Shown here one piece after another: positions 40,583 through 50,087 of a stretch of 64,000 nucleotides of DNA. Below the pieces are notes generated by a model, which saw nothing but the letters and a program-made list of their open reading frames with translations, searched no databases and had not been told where the DNA came from. This DNA is from a virus. Taxonomy: Duplodnaviria > Caudoviricetes. Every line of letters begins with the position of its first letter. Within the stretch, counting starts at the first letter, position 1. The stretch spans positions 1 through 64,000 of IMG/VR virus record IMGVR_UViG_3300031998_000051; one strand, written 5' to 3'. The translations under genes and the position numbers were made by a program.

Positions 40583-40819
40583 AGTTGGCATGACCGTGGA
40601 CGGGTGCCAGCTCACTACCAACCGCATGACTGTGATCAGATGCAGGTTGTCGACTTGATCGGTATGACCGTGGACGGGTACCGATTGCCAGGTAAACAGC
40701 ATGGCCGTGGACGGGTGCTGCTGGCGCGTTTCAACCGCTGTTCACAAATGGCTGCTGACCGTGGACGGAGTAGTCGTGAACCGCAAATCCATCGCCGTTG
40801 ACTGTGATCAGAACGGCGA
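40583..40819 (+). ncRNA. Array of six hairpins with variable stems and conserved 14-nt apical motifs
   Basis: TGACCGTGGACGGG-type at 40591, 40665, 40702, 40756 and TGACTGTGATCAGA at 40627, 40799, each closed by complementary flanks. Confidence 0.65.
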
Positions 40820-42180: not shown

Positions 42181-42651
42181 ATGGCGAACAATGAAGCTTT
42201 GCTCGACTGGGATGACGTCTTGACGGAAGACGGTCAAGAATTTAACAGCTTGCCGGAAGGCGATTATACCTTCACGGTGACCAATTTCGAGCGCTCCTGG
42301 TATAAAGGCTCTGACAAGCTGCCGCCCTGCAATCAGGCCGAGATCACCGTGGAGATCGACAACAATATCGGCTACGCCATCAGCAAATTCAAGCTGCATA
42401 TGGTGAAGCGCCTGGAATGGAAACTGTCGGCTTTCTTCCGCTGCATCGGCCAGAAGAAGCACGGCGAACAGCTGAAACCCGACTGGAGCACCGTGGTAGG
42501 TTCTCGCGGCAAGGCGCACTTCAAGCCGAGGAAAGGCACGAACACCGACAGCGACCGCACCTTCAACGAACTCGACAAGTTCTATGACTGGGATGAATCG
42601 GTCGGCATGAAGCCCGTCGGCGACGATGAGGATATGCCGTGGAATGACTGA
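42181..42651 (+). CDS. DUF669-type single-stranded DNA-binding protein
   Basis: LPEGDYTFTV, EWKLSAFFRCIG, acidic tail DDEDMPW. Confidence 0.8.
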   Translation: MANNEALLDWDDVLTEDGQEFNSLPEGDYTFTVTNFERSWYKGSDKLPPCNQAEITVEIDNNIGYAISKFKLHMVKRLEWKLSAFFRCIGQKKHGEQLKPDWSTVVGSRGKAHFKPRKGTNTDSDRTFNELDKFYDWDESVGMKPVGDDEDMPWND

Positions 42652-44044
42652 TATGCAGGTGGTTATTGACAGCGCCATCCGCGTCACGGATCCAACCGTT
42701 GAGCTTCAAGAGTGGTGCAGGGCAGAGCTCGTCCAGATCAATCCTGATTTCATCAAAAAGGAAAAAATGGGTTTCTGGACGGGCAAAACGCCCGAGAAAA
42801 TCCGCTTCTACGAAGTGCGCGGGAATACCTGGATTCTTCCATTCGGACTGATGAAGCGCCTGCGCGGATTGATTGATTTCAGGACCGTGCAAAGTGGATT
42901 CCAGCCCATTCAGTATGTGGATTACGGCGAGCCGTTGCCGCTTTACGATTACCAGCAGAAAGCAATGGATGAAACCGTCGCCGCTGGTTACGGAATCCTT
43001 CAAGCTCCTGCCGGAAGCGGAAAGACCGAAATCGGTGTTGCTATGATCAAGAAGTTCAGACGGACGGCGTTATGGCTGGCAACGACCCACGATCTGCTGA
43101 AACAGGCAAAGGAACGCGCTGAGCGGTACATGGACAAGAGCCTGATAGGGACCATCACGGGCGGCAAGGTGGACATCGGCAAGGGCGTAACCTTTGCGAC
43201 GATCCAGACCATGAGCAAGCTCAATCTGGAAGACTACAAGCATCAATGGGATTGCATAATTGTCGATGAGTGCCATCATGTGGCTGCCAGTGCGAACAGC
43301 GCCACAATGTTCTACAAAGTGCTGATGAACCTGTCAGCTCGCCACAAGTACGGATTATCGGCAACTGTGCATCGCGCTGACGGCCTGATAAAATCCACAT
43401 TCTCATTGCTTGGCAATGTGGTTTGCACCGTACCGAAGTCGGCAGTAGCCAACAAGATCATGCCGGTGGGCATCATCCAGGTGGAGACCAATGCGGAGAT
43501 GCCGGAAGACTGCATGAGGGATGACCGGGTGGATTATACCAAGCTCATCAATGCGCTATGCGAGGACGAAGAACGCAATTGCACCATCATCGATCATCTG
43601 ATCAATAACGGAGCATATTCGTGCCTGATACTTTCCGACCGTCTCACCCATCTCGAAACGCTGATGGCAGAATTGCCGGAAGATATGCGGGATAAAGCGG
43701 TGATGATCTCCGGCAAGATGGTCAGCAAGAAAGCCAAAGCAGAGCGCGACAATGCCATCGAGCAAATGCGAACCGGCGAGAAGCGTTACCTATTCGCAAG
43801 CTACAACCTGGCTAAGGAAGGTCTCGATATCCCAAGGCTTGAGCGCTTGTTTCTGACAACGCCGCAGAAGGATTTTGCGGTAGTGGTGCAGAGCGTCGGG
43901 CGTATCGCAAGAATCTTTGACGGCAAGGCCGATCCGATTGCCTATGATTTTGTAGACAACAATATCGGGATGATGATCGGAATGGCCAGGAAGCGGGCGC
44001 GAATCTACACCGAGAACAATTGCTATTTTATCGAGAAAGGATAA
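42626..44044 (+). CDS. Superfamily 2 (DEAD/ResIII-like) helicase
   Basis: LYDYQ, APAGSGKT, IVDECHH, GLSAT, EGLDIP, QSVGRIAR. Confidence 0.93.
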   Translation: MRICRGMTDMQVVIDSAIRVTDPTVELQEWCRAELVQINPDFIKKEKMGFWTGKTPEKIRFYEVRGNTWILPFGLMKRLRGLIDFRTVQSGFQPIQYVDYGEPLPLYDYQQKAMDETVAAGYGILQAPAGSGKTEIGVAMIKKFRRTALWLATTHDLLKQAKERAERYMDKSLIGTITGGKVDIGKGVTFATIQTMSKLNLEDYKHQWDCIIVDECHHVAASANSATMFYKVLMNLSARHKYGLSATVHRADGLIKSTFSLLGNVVCTVPKSAVANKIMPVGIIQVETNAEMPEDCMRDDRVDYTKLINALCEDEERNCTIIDHLINNGAYSCLILSDRLTHLETLMAELPEDMRDKAVMISGKMVSKKAKAERDNAIEQMRTGEKRYLFASYNLAKEGLDIPRLERLFLTTPQKDFAVVVQSVGRIARIFDGKADPIAYDFVDNNIGMMIGMARKRARIYTENNCYFIEKG

Positions 44045-44053
44045 ACAAATGGC

Positions 44054-46096
44054 ATGGATAGCGTCACAGAGAGAAGGGTCTTAGCAGCGCTTGAAGCCAT
44101 CCCTGTTGCGGATCTTACGCGGGATGATTGGATCGCTGTTGGTATGGCTTTGAAGGATGAGGGATTCTCTGTTGGCGTCTGGGATGATTGGAGCCGGAAT
44201 GACCGCCGATATCACCAGGGCGAATGCCAGAAAAAATGGGATGGCTTCAAGGGCAGCTCAAAGCCCAAGACAATAGCGACTGTTTTCCAGATGGCGAAGG
44301 AACGCGGCTGGACAGAATTCGACGGCAATGCAGCGATTGGATGGGATGATGCCATTGAATACGATGGTGATGAATCGGGATTACCGAGTACAGCACCAAA
44401 GAAAAACTGGGATCCCGTTCAAGACCTGATTACTTACCTGGAAACGCTTTTCAAGCCGGATGAGAAGGTCGCTTACATCACGAATGAAGTCTGGAAGAAC
44501 GATGATGGCAAATGGGTACCGAGCGGAAAGGGCGTTTATAATCGGACAGTCGGAGAGCTGATCCAATCGCTTAGAAAGCATCCTGATGACATCGGCGCGA
44601 CAGTTGGCGATTATAAGCCGGAAGCCGGAGCATGGATTCGCGTCAATCCCGTAGACGGTAACGGCGTCAAGAACGACAACGTCACCAGCTTCCGATATAC
44701 GCTGGTTGAATCCGATATCTTGCCGATTGCGGAACAGAATGCACTTTTCCGCAAGATGGAATTACCAATAGCGGCGATGGTTCACAGCGGTGGGAAATCG
44801 CTTCATGCGATTGTTCATATCGACGCTGGCAGCTATGAAGAATACCAGAAGCGCGTGGAATACCTCTACAGCTTCATGGAAAAGAACGGAATAGCGATTG
44901 ACAAACAGAATCGCAACCCATCACGACTGAGCCGAATGCCCGGTATCATGCGAGGTGGGAATCGGCAATACCTGGTAGCAACCAATATCGGGCGCAAGAG
45001 CTGGAACGACTGGATGGAATTCGCGGAAGGCTCATCTGATGAACTGCCTGGCATTGTTGAATTGTCCGACTTGCTTGCGGATCCGCCGCCGTTGGCACCG
45101 ACATTGATTGATGGAGTCCTCCGGCGCGGACATAAGATGCTGATCTCCGGCAGCAGTAAAGCCGGTAAATCGTTTCTGCTGATGCAATTAGCTGTAGCGA
45201 TTGCGGAAGGTCAACAATGGCTCGGCTTCCAGTGTTCGCAAGGGCGCGTGCTTTACGTCAATCTGGAAATCGATAAGGCATCATGCGCTAACCGATTCGC
45301 CGTAATCCGCAAAGAACTCAAGACCCGCAATGTCTATGAATGCAGTCACGAGAACAATCTTCTGATCTGGAATCTTCGCGGATACGCTGTGCCATTAGAT
45401 TTATTGGTGCCAAAGCTGATCCACAGAACACGGGACTTGAATCTGGACGCCATCATCATTGACCCAATCTACAAGGTCATTACGGGCGATGAGAATAACG
45501 CCAGCGATATGGGCGCGTTCTGCAACCAGTTCGACAAGATCGCCACGGAGCTGGGCGCGGCGGTGATCTACTGCCACCACCACAGCAAAGGCGCACAAGG
45601 AGCCAAACGGGCGATGGACAGGGCGTCAGGCTCCGGCGTGTTCGCCAGGGACCCGGATGCGCAGTTGGACTTGCTGGAGGTCGAATTAAGCGATGCACAG
45701 TTATTCTCCTTCGGAGGCAACAACGTCACGGCTTTTCGATTGGAAAGCTCACTACGTGAATTTCCGAACTTCAAACCAATCAACATCTGGTTTGAGTATC
45801 CGCTTCACAGAGTGGATAAAGATGGCGTTTTAAGGGACGCACCCGCACAGGGAACGCCAGCGGCAGGACGCACAAAGAACAAGCACAGCCAGACCGCAAC
45901 GGATGCACGATTGGCCTTTGACAACGCTTACGATGTTCTGAACATGGACGGCGACAGCGTTTCAGCGGACGAGATGGCGAGTTACCTTGAGCAGGATGTC
46001 AAAACGATCTACCGCAAAGCAAGAGATTACGACGGATACGTACTGGACAAAAAGCGGGTTTACCGCATAGGTGGTGAAACGAATGACGGAGATTGA
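44054..46096 (+). CDS. Primase-helicase: PriCT_2 + primase-like + AAA_25 (RecA-type) helicase
   Basis: WIAVGMALK..WDDWS; VHSGGKSLHA; SGSSKAGKS, IIIDP, HHHSKG. Confidence 0.9.
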   Translation: MDSVTERRVLAALEAIPVADLTRDDWIAVGMALKDEGFSVGVWDDWSRNDRRYHQGECQKKWDGFKGSSKPKTIATVFQMAKERGWTEFDGNAAIGWDDAIEYDGDESGLPSTAPKKNWDPVQDLITYLETLFKPDEKVAYITNEVWKNDDGKWVPSGKGVYNRTVGELIQSLRKHPDDIGATVGDYKPEAGAWIRVNPVDGNGVKNDNVTSFRYTLVESDILPIAEQNALFRKMELPIAAMVHSGGKSLHAIVHIDAGSYEEYQKRVEYLYSFMEKNGIAIDKQNRNPSRLSRMPGIMRGGNRQYLVATNIGRKSWNDWMEFAEGSSDELPGIVELSDLLADPPPLAPTLIDGVLRRGHKMLISGSSKAGKSFLLMQLAVAIAEGQQWLGFQCSQGRVLYVNLEIDKASCANRFAVIRKELKTRNVYECSHENNLLIWNLRGYAVPLDLLVPKLIHRTRDLNLDAIIIDPIYKVITGDENNASDMGAFCNQFDKIATELGAAVIYCHHHSKGAQGAKRAMDRASGSGVFARDPDAQLDLLEVELSDAQLFSFGGNNVTAFRLESSLREFPNFKPINIWFEYPLHRVDKDGVLRDAPAQGTPAAGRTKNKHSQTATDARLAFDNAYDVLNMDGDSVSADEMASYLEQDVKTIYRKARDYDGYVLDKKRVYRIGGETNDGD

Positions 46097-46325: not shown

Positions 46326-46580
46326 TGGATAAGACCATGATTGCGTGGAAGAAGCACCTGAGCCGTCAGAGCGCAAAGCGCAAGGCCGCGAACAAGGCGG
46401 CGAAGATGTCCCGCAAAGCACAGCGCAAGTGAGGTGACGGGCGATGTTGAAATGGGTAGAGCCATTCATGTGGGCTTACATCAGGGTGATTGCATTCTGG
46501 CTTCAGCTGGTGGGCTGCATTGGATTGATTGGATTTATGGTTGTCGGATTAGACAACGCAATGAATAAGCTGGTGGAGGA

Positions 46581-47015
46581 ATGATAATGGAACAAGGAAT
46601 CATCATTCAGTTTCGTGACAGCGACAAGGTGAGTATCTACAATCCCTGCTTCGATGTGACGCGCAACGAACTGGACATTGCGCTGAAGTCGGCGGTATCG
46701 GAGATGATCGACAAGGATCTTACCAATTCCTCGGTGACGCTCAAACTGGACATTTGCGCCACTACCGAGGCGGTCGCTGATCGAAACGCACAGTCGGGAT
46801 GCCGCGAGGCAAAGAACATCGAGATCGGCGCGAAGGTCGGCTATACGCTTCAGTTCAAGAGCGAAGCCAAGTTCGACGTTGTCAGCGCGAAGCATGGCAA
46901 AGAACTGGTGATGGACAGCCAGGGCGAGTATTCCATGGTTTCGCACGAAGAAGCATCCGGGCAGCTTTCTATGTTCAATTCGTGGAACGAGTACAAGGCT
47001 GCCATGGAGCAGTAG
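46581..47015 (+). CDS. Hypothetical protein
   Basis: 144 aa with RBS GGAGG; C-terminal QLSMF. Confidence 0.65.
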   Translation: MIMEQGIIIQFRDSDKVSIYNPCFDVTRNELDIALKSAVSEMIDKDLTNSSVTLKLDICATTEAVADRNAQSGCREAKNIEIGAKVGYTLQFKSEAKFDVVSAKHGKELVMDSQGEYSMVSHEEASGQLSMFNSWNEYKAAMEQ

Positions 47016-47071
47016 AGACACTCAAACAGCCAACAGGCTGACGGGATAGAGAGATTAAGGAGGATTTTGAA

Positions 47072-47806
47072 ATGGCTACCACCGCAAAGAAGAACACGGA
47101 TTCTCAGGAAATCATCATCAAGCCGGTTAAGATTCAGAAGGCCGACATCACCATCGTCGGCGACACGCCGCTGATCGTTCATGCCTGGTCGGAAAAGGCC
47201 AAGCGCGAGATGCTGGAAGCACAGCAGAAGTTGAAGAAAGACAAGAAGGCAAAGGAGATCAGGCTCCCGGCAAATGAGTTTGTGAGCGCGGCCTACTGGT
47301 TGACGCCTATGCCGGAGCTTGGAACCGATCCCAGCGGCAAGGACACGCTTGCCAACTTTGAAAAGGCCATCGCAGCGGGCGCGAAGTTCGGCTTTCCGAT
47401 CACGGCCATCAAGCAGGCGGCATTGGCGGCTTGCTACCGCGCAGGCATCATTCCCAACCAGATGGGCATGAAATGCAGCTTCTACCTCAACAGCAAGGAC
47501 GGTGTCAACCTCGGCACCGGTTCCGAGCTGGCGGTGATCCAGTCCGACAATCCGCCGGTGATGCGTGAGGATATGGTCAAAATCGGCGGCGTGTCCAAGA
47601 CGGCTGATTTGCGTTACCGCCCTATGTTCACCGATTGGAAAATCGATTTGACGGTCAGCCTGATTGATGTCGGCGTGTTCACGATGGAGTCGATCATCAA
47701 TGCGATCAACCTTTCGGGTTACATGGGCGGCATCGGCGAATGGCGCATGGAGCGCGATGGTGACTTCGGCCACTACCATGTGGAGATTGATGGAGAGAGG
47801 GTGTAA
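47072..47806 (+). CDS. Stand-alone Cas7/RAMP-like RNA-binding protein (candidate effector of the adjacent array)
   Basis: RAMP-like motifs in order: beta1 ITIVGDTPLIVH, FPITAIKQAAL (P..S.KG..R equivalent), C-terminal glycine loop GGIGEWRMERDGDFGHY; RBS AAGGAGG. Confidence 0.7.
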   Translation: MATTAKKNTDSQEIIIKPVKIQKADITIVGDTPLIVHAWSEKAKREMLEAQQKLKKDKKAKEIRLPANEFVSAAYWLTPMPELGTDPSGKDTLANFEKAIAAGAKFGFPITAIKQAALAACYRAGIIPNQMGMKCSFYLNSKDGVNLGTGSELAVIQSDNPPVMREDMVKIGGVSKTADLRYRPMFTDWKIDLTVSLIDVGVFTMESIINAINLSGYMGGIGEWRMERDGDFGHYHVEIDGERV

Positions 47807-47808
47807 TC

Positions 47809-48291
47809 TTGGCAGCGTTTGAATGCAAGTATTCGTACCGTGTGCCTGGGCTTCAAAAGGCTCCGGCAGAGGTTGCGGGCAAAGTGTTCGAGGAGCTGGC
47901 GAACAGTGAAAAAGGCTTATCGCCAAAGACGCTGGTAGATGCCAGCCGGGACGAGAATGCGCCGCTCCACGGAGAATTCGAATGGCGCGACGATGTGGCA
48001 GCAGAGAAATACCGCCTGTCTCAAGCGCAGGGCATTATCCAGAATCTGCGCATCGTGACAGTGCAGGCCGATGGTAGCGAGGCAATGGATCGTGCGTTTG
48101 TGGTTAAGCCTGGCGGCGAGAGCAATTATGTGGCGTTGCAAAGCGCATTGAGCCGTGAAGACTGGAAAGACCATCTGCTCGAAGAAGCCAGACGCGACGT
48201 CAAATGCTTCTTAGGCAAGTATCGCCGTTTGCGTGCTTTGTCTGGGATAACAAGTGCGATGGAGCAGTTTCTCCATAATGATGTCGGTTGA
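47809..48291 (+). CDS. Partner protein of the RAMP-like gene
   Basis: TTG start 2 nt after RAMP stop; LSPKTLVDASRDENAPLHGEFEWRDDVAAEKYR. Confidence 0.7.
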   Translation: MAAFECKYSYRVPGLQKAPAEVAGKVFEELANSEKGLSPKTLVDASRDENAPLHGEFEWRDDVAAEKYRLSQAQGIIQNLRIVTVQADGSEAMDRAFVVKPGGESNYVALQSALSREDWKDHLLEEARRDVKCFLGKYRRLRALSGITSAMEQFLHNDVG

Positions 48292-48298
48292 CGGTTGC

Positions 48299-49360
48299 GT
48301 AGGGCTCCGTTATAAAAAAGCCTGAGACATGGTAAGGATTGGCGGGTTGGAGTTAGGTATGGCGGCGAGGGTTATGGCAGTCGAGGATAGGCGCGGAAAG
48401 TTGCGGTTGCGCGGAGTATGGCAAGGCACGGTATGGCAGTCTCGGAGGGGCACGTTAGTGCGCGGAGGGGCTTGCTCCGGATGCGAGGGGCTTGTCAAGG
48501 CAGTCTTGGAACGTTTCGGTTCGGTGCGTACAGGTGTTGCACGGTAAGGCTGGGCAGTCTTGGTTCGGTTAGGCATGGAGCTGTTAGTTCCGGCTTGATG
48601 AGGCAGTCGAGGATGGGTCAGGCGCGTAAACGGTGCGGCATGGTGCGGTCCGGCGCGGCAGTCGTGGACAGGAATGCAATGTCAATGTGAGTATAGGCAT
48701 GATGCGGATCTGAACGGTGTGGCAGTAATGGATCGGTCAGTCGCGTAAAGGCGCGGCGGCGCACGGTTAGGCAGTCTCGGATGGGCAGTGCGATGTTACG
48801 GATGGTTCCGGCAATGTTCGGCTGGGCGCTGCAAGGCTTGGCAGTCTCGGATTGTTTCGGCGATGCTCGTTGAGGCAAAGCTGGGTATGGCAGTCTTGGA
48901 ATGTCAGCGCGTGTTGACGATTGCACCGGCGCGGCAGGAATGCCACGGGTTATGTAGGGCTCCCGGTCAACAAAAGCCCGAGACATGGAGAGTAGAGGCT
49001 GGTCTGTGTTTGGTATGGTTTGAAGAGGTATGGCAGTCGTGGACAGGAACGGATCGGTCAGTCCCGTATCGTTAAAGCAAGTAGGGTATCGGTTCGGTTT
49101 GGCAGTTAAGGACAGGACAGGCTTGGAAGGTATGGTGGGTTTTGCATTGTATCGGATAGTTTTGTCATGGCAGTCAAGGCGAGGCGCGGAAGTGAGTGGC
49201 TTGTCGCGGATTCGCACGGAGTGTATCTGTGTGGCAGTTCTGGAAGCGATGGGTTAGGCTCGTACAGGCAAGGTAACGCGGGTTGTGGCAGCCGAGGATA
49301 GTTGCGGACGCGCCTGTCAAGTTGGTGCCTGGTGAGCCGTGTTGGGACAAGGCAGTCACG
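48299..49360 (+). ncRNA. Array of GGCAG-delimited units built from phased GG(Y/A)NN pentamers, with two leaders
   Basis: 17 GGCAG delimiters; 12 of 15 spacings equal 5n+4; leader GTAGGGCTCC...AGCC(T/C)GAGACATGG at 48299 and 48954. Confidence 0.85.
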
Positions 49361-49389
49361 GAAATTCTGTAAGATTGGAGGTAACAACA

Positions 49390-49842
49390 ACGGATATAAG
49401 AAGCGTGAGCTTCACTGTTCCGGGTGAGCCTGTCGGTAAGGCTCGCCCGAAAACAGTGAACATAAAGAACAGGGCTACAACGGTAACGTTCACGCCGGAG
49501 AAAACGGTGATATATGAAAACCTTGTGAAGGTCGAGTATCAACAACAATGCCATAACTTCTACTTCGGTGAGAAGCAACCATTGATAATGGAGATCATCT
49601 GTTATTACGGAATGCCGAAGTCTGACAGCAAGAAAAAACGGGCCGCGAAGCTGGCTGGAGAGATCAGGCCAACGAAGAAGCCGGACATCGACAACTGCAT
49701 CAAAGCCATTGCAGATTCTTTGAACACTATCGCATACAAGGATGATACGCAAATCGTAAAGGTGGTTGCGGAAAAACGATATTCGGAGAAGCCCAGAGTG
49801 GAGATTACGATTTCGGACATAAATGAGGAGGACGGCAGATGA
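49390..49842 (+). CDS. rusA: RusA-family Holliday junction resolvase
   Basis: VPGEPVGKARP, PTKKPDIDNCIKAIADSLN..YKDDTQIV; ACG at the expected start position. Confidence 0.9.
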   Translation, partial: TDIRSVSFTVPGEPVGKARPKTVNIKNRATTVTFTPEKTVIYENLVKVEYQQQCHNFYFGEKQPLIMEIICYYGMPKSDSKKKRAAKLAGEIRPTKKPDIDNCIKAIADSLNTIAYKDDTQIVKVVAEKRYSEKPRVEITISDINEEDGR

Positions 49843-50087
49843 AACCCTACCCTATCACGTCTCCCGATCATTTGCGTGACCTCACGAAAATGGTCAAGTG
49901 GGACAAGGACAAGAAGGCCATATGGGATTTCGCCGATGACTGGTTTCGGAAAGGCGATCAGCGCCAGGTTACGCTTGAAGTCGGCAGTAGCGCCCAGGTG
50001 GTCTACACCACCGACAAGAAGCGGATCGTGCTGGCGACGCTGTATCAGCGGGCGGCAAAGGACTATGTGAACGGAGTGAGGGTATGA
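49839..50087 (+). CDS. Hypothetical protein
   Basis: RBS GGAGG; coupled ORF. Confidence 0.55.
   Translation: MKPYPITSPDHLRDLTKMVKWDKDKKAIWDFADDWFRKGDQRQVTLEVGSSAQVVYTTDKKRIVLATLYQRAAKDYVNGVRV

What the first reader, a model, noticed from the sequence alone, without database searches (positions are those of the whole stretch)
47072..49360. Candidate phage RNA-guided system: lone Cas7/RAMP-like gene, partner gene and a pentamer-coded guide array
Seen: ORF 47072 has the RAMP motif order (ITIVGDTPLIVH; FPITAIKQ; terminal glycine loop GGIGEWR..DGDFG). It is followed by a coupled 160-aa gene and about 1.06 kb of non-coding, strand-biased repeats, with no cas1/2/3/5/6 and no CRISPR array. Established: Cas7 filaments bind RNA with a fixed per-subunit periodicity. 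Inference: each 44-70 nt unit is coated by RAMP subunits, one per pentamer, with conserved GG(Y/A) as handle and variable NN read out as a non-contiguous guide. From memory, this matches recently reported 'VIPR' phage systems (GGY/NN RNAs); that match is unverified. Likely role: targeting competing phages or mobile elements, or transcriptional silencing.
Basis: partly seen in the sequence, partly recalled or inferred. Interest (0 to 1): 0.95.

Follow-up and report, generated by a model that had tools for sequence, protein, structure and literature searches.

The report
Rumen phage VIPR RNA-guided silencing locus
This bovine-gut phage carries a VIPR system, a kind first described in 2026 preprints: a Cas7-like protein, a partner gene and about 16 pentamer-coded guide RNAs, one of which matches a gene in related rival phages.

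Summary

- **Protein.** ORF 47072-47806 is a homologue of the solved SUSP1 Vipr protein (family profile against PDB 36pp, E 1.2e-13). Its confident model has a Cas7/Csm3 fold (Z 11.5).
- **Partner gene.** ORF 47809-48291 follows it closely. Relatives lie next to vipr in 39 of 46 related loci. Its fold is not recognised.
- **Array.** The non-coding tract 48292-49338 has a strong 5-nt GG period (180 against 80 +/- 8 in shuffles). It splits into about 16 units of 49-70 nt built of GG-H-NN pentamers. Units are joined by an invariant GGCAG|TC in which neighbours share one G. There are no 3' tails or ribozymes, which fits the "staggered array" legend of the VIPR preprint.
- **Context.** No Cas1, Cas2 or CRISPR array was found in this complete 77.8-kb phage.
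- **New here.** Under the published 1-nt-skip rule, guide 49173-49237 matches 13 IMG/VR phage contigs exactly at all 24 NN bases. The site is a DUF7307 gene, with skipped bases on codon wobble positions. Those phages share terminase and portal genes with this phage but lack VIPR, and this phage lacks DUF7307.

Expression was not testable. This is a new member of a known kind.

The parts
47072..47806 (+). vipr: a 244-aa RAMP/Cas7-like Vipr protein. The glycine loop GGIGEWR lies at residues 216-225.
   Evidence: phmmer against PDB hits 36pp_D 'SUSP1 Vipr protein' at E 4.4e-5. A 78-sequence profile hits it at E 1.2e-13. AF2 model pLDDT 94.3. Foldseek top hits are type VII Cas7, Csm3 and Cas7-11. 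VIA Z 11.5, 157 residues aligned, 3.7 A to Csm3. G216, G220, R225 and G233 are invariant.
47809..48291 (+). Candidate vap (Vipr-accessory protein), 160 aa, start TTG two bases after the vipr stop. Fold and function are unknown.
   Evidence: No Pfam hit; phrog_15946 at 2e-17. A homologue lies next to vipr in 39 of 46 related loci. AF2 pLDDT 90.8, but no significant PDB fold match. BFVD gives only uncharacterised phage proteins. No similarity to the gene downstream of vipr (vap1 position) in Shigella phage Z31.
48288..48333 (+). Leader 1. It holds a sigma-70-like TTGACG (48288-48293), a 17-nt spacer and TATAAA (48311-48316), then GCCTGAGACAT up to the first pentamer.
   Evidence: Read directly. 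The leader block GGTTGYGTAGGGCTCC..ATAAAAA..GCCYGAGAC recurs at 48948 and twice in L003. The promoter role is inferred. The consensus scanner did not call it.
48334..48947 (+). Sub-array 1, about 10-11 candidate vrRNA units of GG-H-NN pentamers. Unit starts: 48334, 48380, 48439, 48503, 48557, 48606, 48661, 48725, 48774, 48844, 48893. The last unit is degenerate.
   Evidence: Most window units are 5k-1 nt from one GGCAG to the next, as expected if neighbouring units share one G.
48948..48988 (+). Leader 2, a 71%-identical copy of leader 1 that heads the second sub-array.
   Evidence: the repeat finder family D5; motif search.
48989..49360 (+). Sub-array 2, about 6 candidate vrRNA units. Unit starts: 48989, 49036, 49105, 49173, 49237, 49291. 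A final GGCAGTC lies at 49351.
49173..49237 (+). The guide with an identified natural target. Its 12 NN dinucleotides give AAnGAnGCnAGnGTnTTnGCnTTnACnGTnTCnGT.
   Evidence: 13 exact matches in IMG/VR viral contigs. All lie antisense in a DUF7307 gene, on the peptide TETVNANTLASF, with skipped bases at wobble positions. The best match in the phage's own genome is 16 of 24, which is shuffle level.

Best explanation
The stretch 47072-49360 is a VIPR (Viral Interference Programmable Repeat) system carried by a complete 77.8-kb tailed phage from bovine gut.

- **Vipr** (47072-47806) is a minimal Cas7-like RAMP protein. By analogy with the solved SUSP1 system, its copies polymerise along each guide RNA, one per pentamer. 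Each copy holds the conserved GG-H bases and presents the two variable bases (NN).
- **The array** (48334-49360) encodes about 16 guide RNAs of 10-14 pentamers in two leader-headed sub-arrays. The guides abut directly. Each starts GTCNN and ends GGCAG, and neighbours share one G. There is no 3' tail or ribozyme.
- **The code.** The NN pairs read double-stranded DNA with one target base skipped after every two.
- **A target.** At least one guide (49173-49237) is aimed at the conserved TETVNANTLASF codons of a DUF7307 gene. That gene sits in the replication module of related temperate phages that share this phage's terminase and portal genes but lack VIPR.
- **Likely role.** Silencing of co-infecting or resident rival phages.
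- **The 160-aa partner gene** (47809-48291) is a co-inherited accessory protein of unknown activity.

Shown here: homology, fold, array grammar, co-occurrence with related proteins, target matches. Inferred from the papers: filament assembly, DNA binding, silencing. Unknown: how the tail-less units are cut apart.
For: - **Homology.** The single sequence hits PDB 36pp 'SUSP1 Vipr protein' at E 4.4e-5, aligned over the glycine loop. The family profile hits it at E 1.2e-13 over 137 positions.
- **Fold.** pLDDT 94.3. All top Foldseek and VIA matches are Cas7-family RAMPs, best Z 11.5.
- **Array.** Lag-5k GG pairs 180 against 80.4 +/- 7.8. The logo of 57 units from 6 loci shows GG-H-NN with variable NN, and 46 of 57 unit lengths equal 4 mod 5.
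- **Co-occurrence.** All 5 close viral relatives carry GGCAGT-anchored arrays. 38 of 45 loci carry a same-strand period-5 GG tract beside vipr, nearly always just downstream, and none carries one on the opposite strand. The vap homologue is adjacent in 39 of 46 loci.
- **Context.** An IMG/VR virus record, CheckV 100%, with TerS, TerL and portal genes. No Cas1, Cas2 or CRISPR array.
- **Target.** 13 exact hits on 24 specified bases, in frame with the skip at the wobble position, in PF23984 DUF7307. The gene lies next to an SNF2 helicase and a serine integrase.
- **Sister phage.** Two guides of sister phage L002 hit the same phage set at 22/24 and 20/22. Both are above their shuffles and both are wobble-aligned.
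- **Self versus target.** No above-chance self-match. DUF7307 is absent from this phage. The target phages lack vipr and vap but share TerL (about 70% aa) and portal (about 62% aa).
- **Published mechanism.**
Against: - There are no expression data. No RNA run holds this stretch, so transcription, processing and RNA binding are untested.
- Only 1 of 8 window guides tested has an exact database match. The 13 hits are homologous genes, so they count as one independent event. My rough chance estimate is about 3e-3 after multiple testing and assumes a collection of about 5e10 bases.
- Many pentamers are degenerate (G-T, G-C or a non-G first base), and several units are out of register (48606, 48788, 49105).
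- The partner protein shows no similarity to the gene downstream of vipr (vap1 position) in Shigella phage Z31, and it has no recognised DNA-binding fold.
- The VIPR type (I-VII) could not be assigned, because the paper's tree and figures are not available here.
Confidence: 0.88

Rival explanations
1. The same parts act on RNA rather than DNA. The Vipr-vrRNA filament would bind or cleave rival-phage mRNA, as Csm3 and Cas7-11 relatives do.
For: The closest solved folds outside VIPR are RNA-targeting Csm3, type VII Cas7 and Cas7-11. All three target matches found have the guide complementary to the coding (mRNA-sense) strand.
Against: Three of three has a chance of 1 in 8. The characterised VIPR systems bind dsDNA and target both strands. 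The position after beta-1 (D31) is not conserved in the family consensus, so there is no sign of a conserved catalytic Asp there.
Confidence: 0.07
2. The G-rich periodic tract is not a guide array. It would be a DNA-level element, such as an origin or iteron region, a protein-binding array or a G-quadruplex-prone spacer, that merely lies next to a RAMP-like gene.
For: It lies inside the replication and recombination module, between helicase/primase and RusA. Expression has not been shown.
Against: The strict strand bias and the linkage to vipr hold across phyla and genomic contexts. NN positions are variable between conserved GG positions. One unit matches a foreign gene exactly under the published code, bounded exactly by its 12 variable pentamers. 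Arrays differ almost completely between phages whose Vipr proteins are 91-92% identical.
Confidence: 0.03
3. It is a decayed or inactive VIPR remnant. The protein is intact, but most of the array is degenerate and non-functional.
For: Several units have broken register or many non-GG pentamers. 7 of 8 guides tested have no exact match.
Against: Both genes are intact and well conserved. The matching guide itself contains five degenerate pentamers, yet all 12 of its NN pairs match. The VIPR paper reports frequent internal degeneracy in working vrRNAs. Exact-match-only searching is a very strict filter.
Confidence: 0.05

Closest known systems
VIPR type II (Escherichia phage SUSP1, P. fulva prophage): bioRxiv 10.64898/2026.04.26.720920 and 10.64898/2026.04.26.720927; PDB 36pp
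   Same: A homologous Vipr protein with the same G-loop. The gene order vipr, then a small accessory gene, then a downstream same-strand array matches the Felixounavirus Shigella phage Z31, whose vipr-like gene I read as SUSP1-type. Guides are built of GG-x-NN pentamers. The 1-nt-skip rule finds wobble-aligned targets in competing phage elements.
   Different: Only about 30% identity, and only over the C-terminal third by single-sequence search. The protein is 244 aa, against 195 aa for the Z31 gene (202 in the PDB chain). About 16 abutting units replace 4 spaced vrRNAs, each with a roughly 40-nt tail. The third base is H, not Y. The accessory protein shows no similarity to the Z31 gene in the vap1 position. 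The host is probably a rumen clostridial bacterium, not an enterobacterium.
VIPR 'staggered vrRNA arrays' (fig. S18 legend of 10.64898/2026.04.26.720920)
   Same: The legend says vrRNAs derive from positions that overlap by 1 nt, with the end of one marking the start of the next. Here units are 5k-1 nt apart, which fits a shared G in GGCA[G]TC.
   Different: The figure and its example loci cannot be seen here. Whether that class has the GGCAGTC junction, this vap, or this Vipr clade is unknown.
Cas7/Csm3 backbone subunits of type III and type VII CRISPR-Cas
   Same: The same RRM-based RAMP fold with a C-terminal glycine loop (Z 11.5). By analogy, one subunit is bound per fixed number of guide nucleotides.
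   Different: There are no CRISPR repeats, Cas1, Cas2 or other cas genes. The period is 5 nt, not 6. The guide is gapped, not contiguous. No Cas Pfam or PADLOC model recognises the sequence.

Membership tests
VIPR system | The Vipr protein is homologous to characterised Vipr proteins | tested here: met
   PDB 36pp_D 'SUSP1 Vipr protein': E 4.4e-5 with the single sequence and E 1.2e-13 with the family profile.
VIPR system | A single-RRM RAMP fold with a glycine-rich loop and a thumb | tested here: met
   Model pLDDT 94.3. Csm3 and Cas7 matches at Z 9.3-11.5 cover residues 17-244. G216, G220, R225 and G233 are invariant. The thumb hairpin was not examined separately.
VIPR system | A minimal locus of vipr plus one accessory gene, with no CRISPR array or cas operon | tested here: met
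   Cas3, Cas5 and Cas6 were not searched one by one.
VIPR system | An adjacent non-coding array of at least 4 YNNGG-type pentamer repeats on the gene strand | tested here: met
   The consensus here is GG-H-NN. The paper allows related consensus forms.
VIPR system | vrRNAs are expressed and co-purify with Vipr | not testable with these tools
   No RNA run is listed for this stretch.
VIPR system | Guides find natural targets under the 1-nt-skip rule, with no self-targets | tested here: met
   Guide 49173 has 13 exact, wobble-aligned hits. Self matches are at shuffle level. 7 other guides had no exact hit.
VIPR system | A viral or proviral genomic context | tested here: met
   IMG/VR virus record, CheckV 100%. 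TerS, TerL and portal genes.
VIPR type II (SUSP1-like) | Each vrRNA carries a conserved structured 3' tail of about 40 nt; the accessory gene is vap1 | tested here: not met
   Units abut with only the 7-nt GGCAGTC between them. The Shigella phage Z31 array has tails. The partner shows no similarity to the Z31 gene in the vap1 position.
VIPR ribozyme-interspersed arrays | Hammerhead ribozymes between vrRNAs | tested here: not met
   There is no room between abutting units. The Rfam scan of 46500-50000 at E<=1 gave no match.
VIPR staggered arrays | Neighbouring vrRNAs overlap by 1 nt | tested here: inconclusive
   The unit phase (length 4 mod 5 in 46 of 57 units) fits. Real RNA ends are unknown, and the reference figure cannot be seen.
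CRISPR-Cas (class 1) | A CRISPR repeat-spacer array plus cas genes beyond Cas7 | tested here: not met

The most novel reading that the evidence does not exclude
This very large Vipr clade has 2373 clusters at 50% identity, and its own conserved partner gene goes with it in at least 39 of the 46 loci examined. It might use a tail-less, self-measuring way of cutting guides at the GGCA|G junction. It might also act, wholly or partly, on the mRNA-sense strand, since 3 of 3 targets are antisense. Either would be a mechanistic variant not covered by the SUSP1 work.
Probability: 0.15. Interest if true: 0.6.

Novelty: new member of a known kind. Interest (0 to 1): 0.4.

Why it matters
VIPR was described only in 2026 preprints, and the experiments were done mainly on an E. 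coli phage system. This locus shows the same logic in an uncultured rumen phage with a much larger array of about 16 guides. It also gives a concrete natural example of self versus non-self choice. The guide targets the best-conserved codons of a gene found only in sister phages that share this phage's packaging genes. That offers a ready-made target-guide pair for testing a tail-less array type. It does not open a new category.

Tried and rejected
- **Databases.** Pfam gave nothing for either protein and PADLOC gave nothing. Rfam at E<=1 gave nothing over 46500-50000, so no hammerhead or known RNA family was found. TRF found no tandem repeat in the array, because the units are too divergent.
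- **Partner protein.** Foldseek against PDB: best E 0.1, with GNAT-like noise. VIA wide: best Z 5.4, covering only the C-terminal helical hairpin. BFVD: only uncharacterised phage proteins. ESM Atlas: unnamed viral clusters. PDB profile search: nothing.
- **Target searches with no hit.**
  - Guide 49036: viral contigs, metagenome contigs, 5 MAGs, and 401 genomes of the order of G001 at <=3 mismatches.
  - Guides 48439, 48661, 49291, 48380 and 48503: exact search in viral contigs.
  - Guide 48661: metagenome contigs.
  - No other window guide hits the five full target-phage genomes at <=3 mismatches.
- **Sequencing runs.** No RNA holder is listed, only bovine and goat gut DNA runs. Read laying was not used, because DNA contigs cannot show RNA ends.
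- **Related-locus searches.** The first genome-contig scan with the single protein found nothing. The 78-sequence alignment was too diverse for the search for related loci.
- **Promoter scan.** The scanner did not call the TTGACG-17-TATAAA site.
- **Not attempted.** Complex prediction was not run, because I make no binding claim for Vipr and the partner protein.
Full report
**Observation.** The window is positions 1-64000 of a 77,818-nt IMG/VR virus record rated 100% complete by CheckV. The finding sits in a replication and recombination module:

- a helicase at 42626-44044
- a PriCT-2/AAA_25 primase-helicase at 44054-46096
- two unannotated ORFs at 47072-47806 (244 aa) and 47809-48291 (160 aa)
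- a 1047-nt gene-free tract
- RusA

The tract is 39% G. Its GG autocorrelation peaks at lags 5, 10, 15 and so on, with a secondary series at 9, 14, 19. Summed lag-5k GG pairs are 180, against 80.4 +/- 7.8 (maximum 108) in 500 dinucleotide-preserving shuffles. GGCAGT occurs 15 times, against about 1 expected.

**The protein.** Pfam and PADLOC do not recognise ORF 47072, and PHROGs gives only an unnamed family. phmmer against PDB sequences hits one relevant entry, 36pp 'SUSP1 Vipr protein', at E 4.4e-5. The alignment covers the C-terminal strand and the glycine loop, with GGIGEWR aligned to CGVGDWR.

The family is large: 2373 clusters at 50% identity with E<=1e-3, and 4225 clusters at 90% identity. 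A profile of 78 diverse members hits 36pp at E 1.2e-13 over 137 positions.

The AlphaFold2 model is confident (pLDDT 94.3, pTM 0.87). All top structural matches are Cas7-family RAMPs: type VII Cas7, Csm3, Cmr and Cas7-11. Foldseek E-values start at 1.5e-5. VIA gives Z 11.5 with 157 residues aligned at 3.7 A. G216, G220, R225 and G233 are invariant in the family.

**The partner gene.** ORF 47809 starts two bases after the vipr stop. tblastn finds a homologue beside vipr in 39 of 46 related loci, spanning Clostridia, Selenomonadales, Alphaproteobacteria and others. The order varies. It is vipr-vap-array here and in the alphaproteobacterial loci, but vipr-array-vap in several clostridial MAG prophages.

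Its model is confident (pLDDT 90.8), but no known fold was recognised. It shows no similarity to the gene downstream of vipr (the vap1 position) in the Felixounavirus Shigella phage Z31. I call it a vap candidate of unknown activity.

**The array.** Sixteen GGCAG[T/C] anchors divide the tract into units of 49-70 nt. I pooled 57 units from this window and five related viral loci. The logo reads GGCAG-T-C-NN-GG-A-NN-G(G/T)-H-NN and so on. G is at 0.6-0.9 at the two conserved positions. The third position is almost never G. The two NN positions use all four bases.

Unit length is 4 mod 5 in 46 of 57 units. The simplest reading is a run of pentamers in which each unit starts GTCNN and ends GGCAG, and neighbours share one G. 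That matches the wording of the VIPR paper's 'staggered array' legend, which describes positions overlapping by 1 nt, with the end of one vrRNA being the start of the next. I could not see that figure.

There is no 3' tail of the kind seen in the Z31 array. Rfam finds no ribozyme.

A 41-nt leader holds TTGACG, a 17-nt spacer and TATAAA at 48288-48316. It recurs at 48948 and splits the array into two sub-arrays. The same leader appears twice in L003. Its role as a promoter is inferred only.

Some units are irregular (48606, 48788, 49105), and many pentamers are degenerate.

**Co-occurrence.** All five viral relatives (65-92% identical Vipr) have GGCAGT-anchored arrays downstream. Forty more loci from genome assemblies (28-53% identity) were retrieved. 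Across the 45 related loci, 38 have a same-strand period-5 GG tract beside vipr, nearly always just downstream, and none has one on the opposite strand.

Arrays of phages whose Vipr is 91-92% identical share essentially no units with this one. Best unit identity is 0.44-0.75, close to the within-array range of 0.45-0.58. Guides therefore turn over much faster than the protein.

**What is known.** VIPR systems are described in three 2026 preprints. They comprise a phage-borne ancestral RAMP (Vipr), an accessory gene (vap) and vrRNAs of 9-16 GGY/NN pentamers. Vipr polymerises on the RNA and holds each GGY. The NN pairs read dsDNA with one base skipped per two read. Binding silences transcription, and natural targets are satellites and competing prophages. 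Seven types are defined, with array styles that include staggered and ribozyme-interspersed forms.

**Target test.** I converted clean window guides to NNx patterns, as in the paper's methods.

- *Own genome.* Best matches equal shuffled-guide levels.
- *Exact scans of IMG/VR.* Six guides gave nothing.
- *Guide 49173-49237.* It has 12 NN, so 24 specified bases, and it gave 13 exact matches.

The matched sequences differ from one another mainly at the skipped bases. All lie antisense in an open frame of 138-201 aa, on the peptide TETVNANTLASF, so every skipped base is a codon wobble position. The match stops exactly at the 12 variable pentamers. The terminal GGCAG is not read.

The gene is PF23984 DUF7307 (Pam3 gp33-like; phrog_2378). 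It lies next to an SNF2 helicase and near a large serine recombinase.

The 13 hits are homologous, so they count as one event. With roughly 5e10 bases in the collection (an assumed size) and 24 fixed bases, I estimate about 3-5e-4 chance matches per guide, or about 3e-3 for all patterns tried.

Independent support comes from sister phage L002 (91% Vipr identity). Two of its guides match the same target loci at 22/24, inside the SNF2 helicase gene, and at 20/22. Both exceed their shuffles and both are wobble-aligned.

**Who is targeted.** Five target records were fetched whole. They are 44-69 kb, CheckV 88-100% complete, and one is a provirus. They lack vipr and vap, but they share TerS, TerL (about 70% aa) and portal (about 62% aa) with this phage. 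This phage has no DUF7307 gene. The guide therefore aims at a gene present only in related rivals, which fits the published inter-phage competition role.

**Limits.**
- No RNA data exist for this stretch. Expression, processing and binding are inferred.
- All three targets are antisense to mRNA, which is too few to argue for RNA targeting.
- The VIPR type could not be assigned.

**Verdict.** This is a real and well-supported feature. It is a new member of a kind already described, in a tail-less abutting array form, with one concrete natural target.

Noticed in passing
window 40587-40719: Three or more copies of a 22-nt palindromic hairpin, GGCATGACCGTGGACGGGTGCC, spaced 37-74 nt apart (repeat finder family D2). 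An earlier first-reader note describes six tandem hairpins here.
   Followed up: no
window 48661-49068: Unit 49036 starts with 14 nt identical to the start of unit 48661. It then carries 13 nt identical to an in-register block of unit 48725. This suggests that units are reshuffled by recombination between pentamer blocks.
   Followed up: partly
window 48288-48333 and 48948-48988; L003 about 5189 and 5833: A conserved leader, GGTTGYGTAGGGCTCC..ATAAAAA..GCCYGAGAC, heads each sub-array in two phages. Only the first window copy has a good -35/-10 pair.
   Followed up: partly
L007, L009, L013, L033 compared with window: In several clostridial MAG prophages the pentamer tract lies between vipr and the vap homologue. 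In the window clade and the alphaproteobacterial loci it lies after vap.
   Followed up: partly
phage records H1-H30: 25 Mycobacterium phage records (for example Quico, Florinda, BobaPhett) and 5 Gordonia phage records encode full-length homologues of this Vipr (28-31% identity). All are annotated as hypothetical. Their flanks were not checked for arrays.
   Followed up: no
window 49339-49842: The RusA ORF as listed starts at GTG 49339, inside the last array unit. The Pfam match begins at residue 28, and an in-frame GTG at 49405 is the more likely start, so the array and RusA probably do not overlap.
   Followed up: partly
L048-L060; G406-G410: All three guide-target matches, one from the window and two from L002, have the guide complementary to the coding strand of the target gene.
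   Followed up: partly
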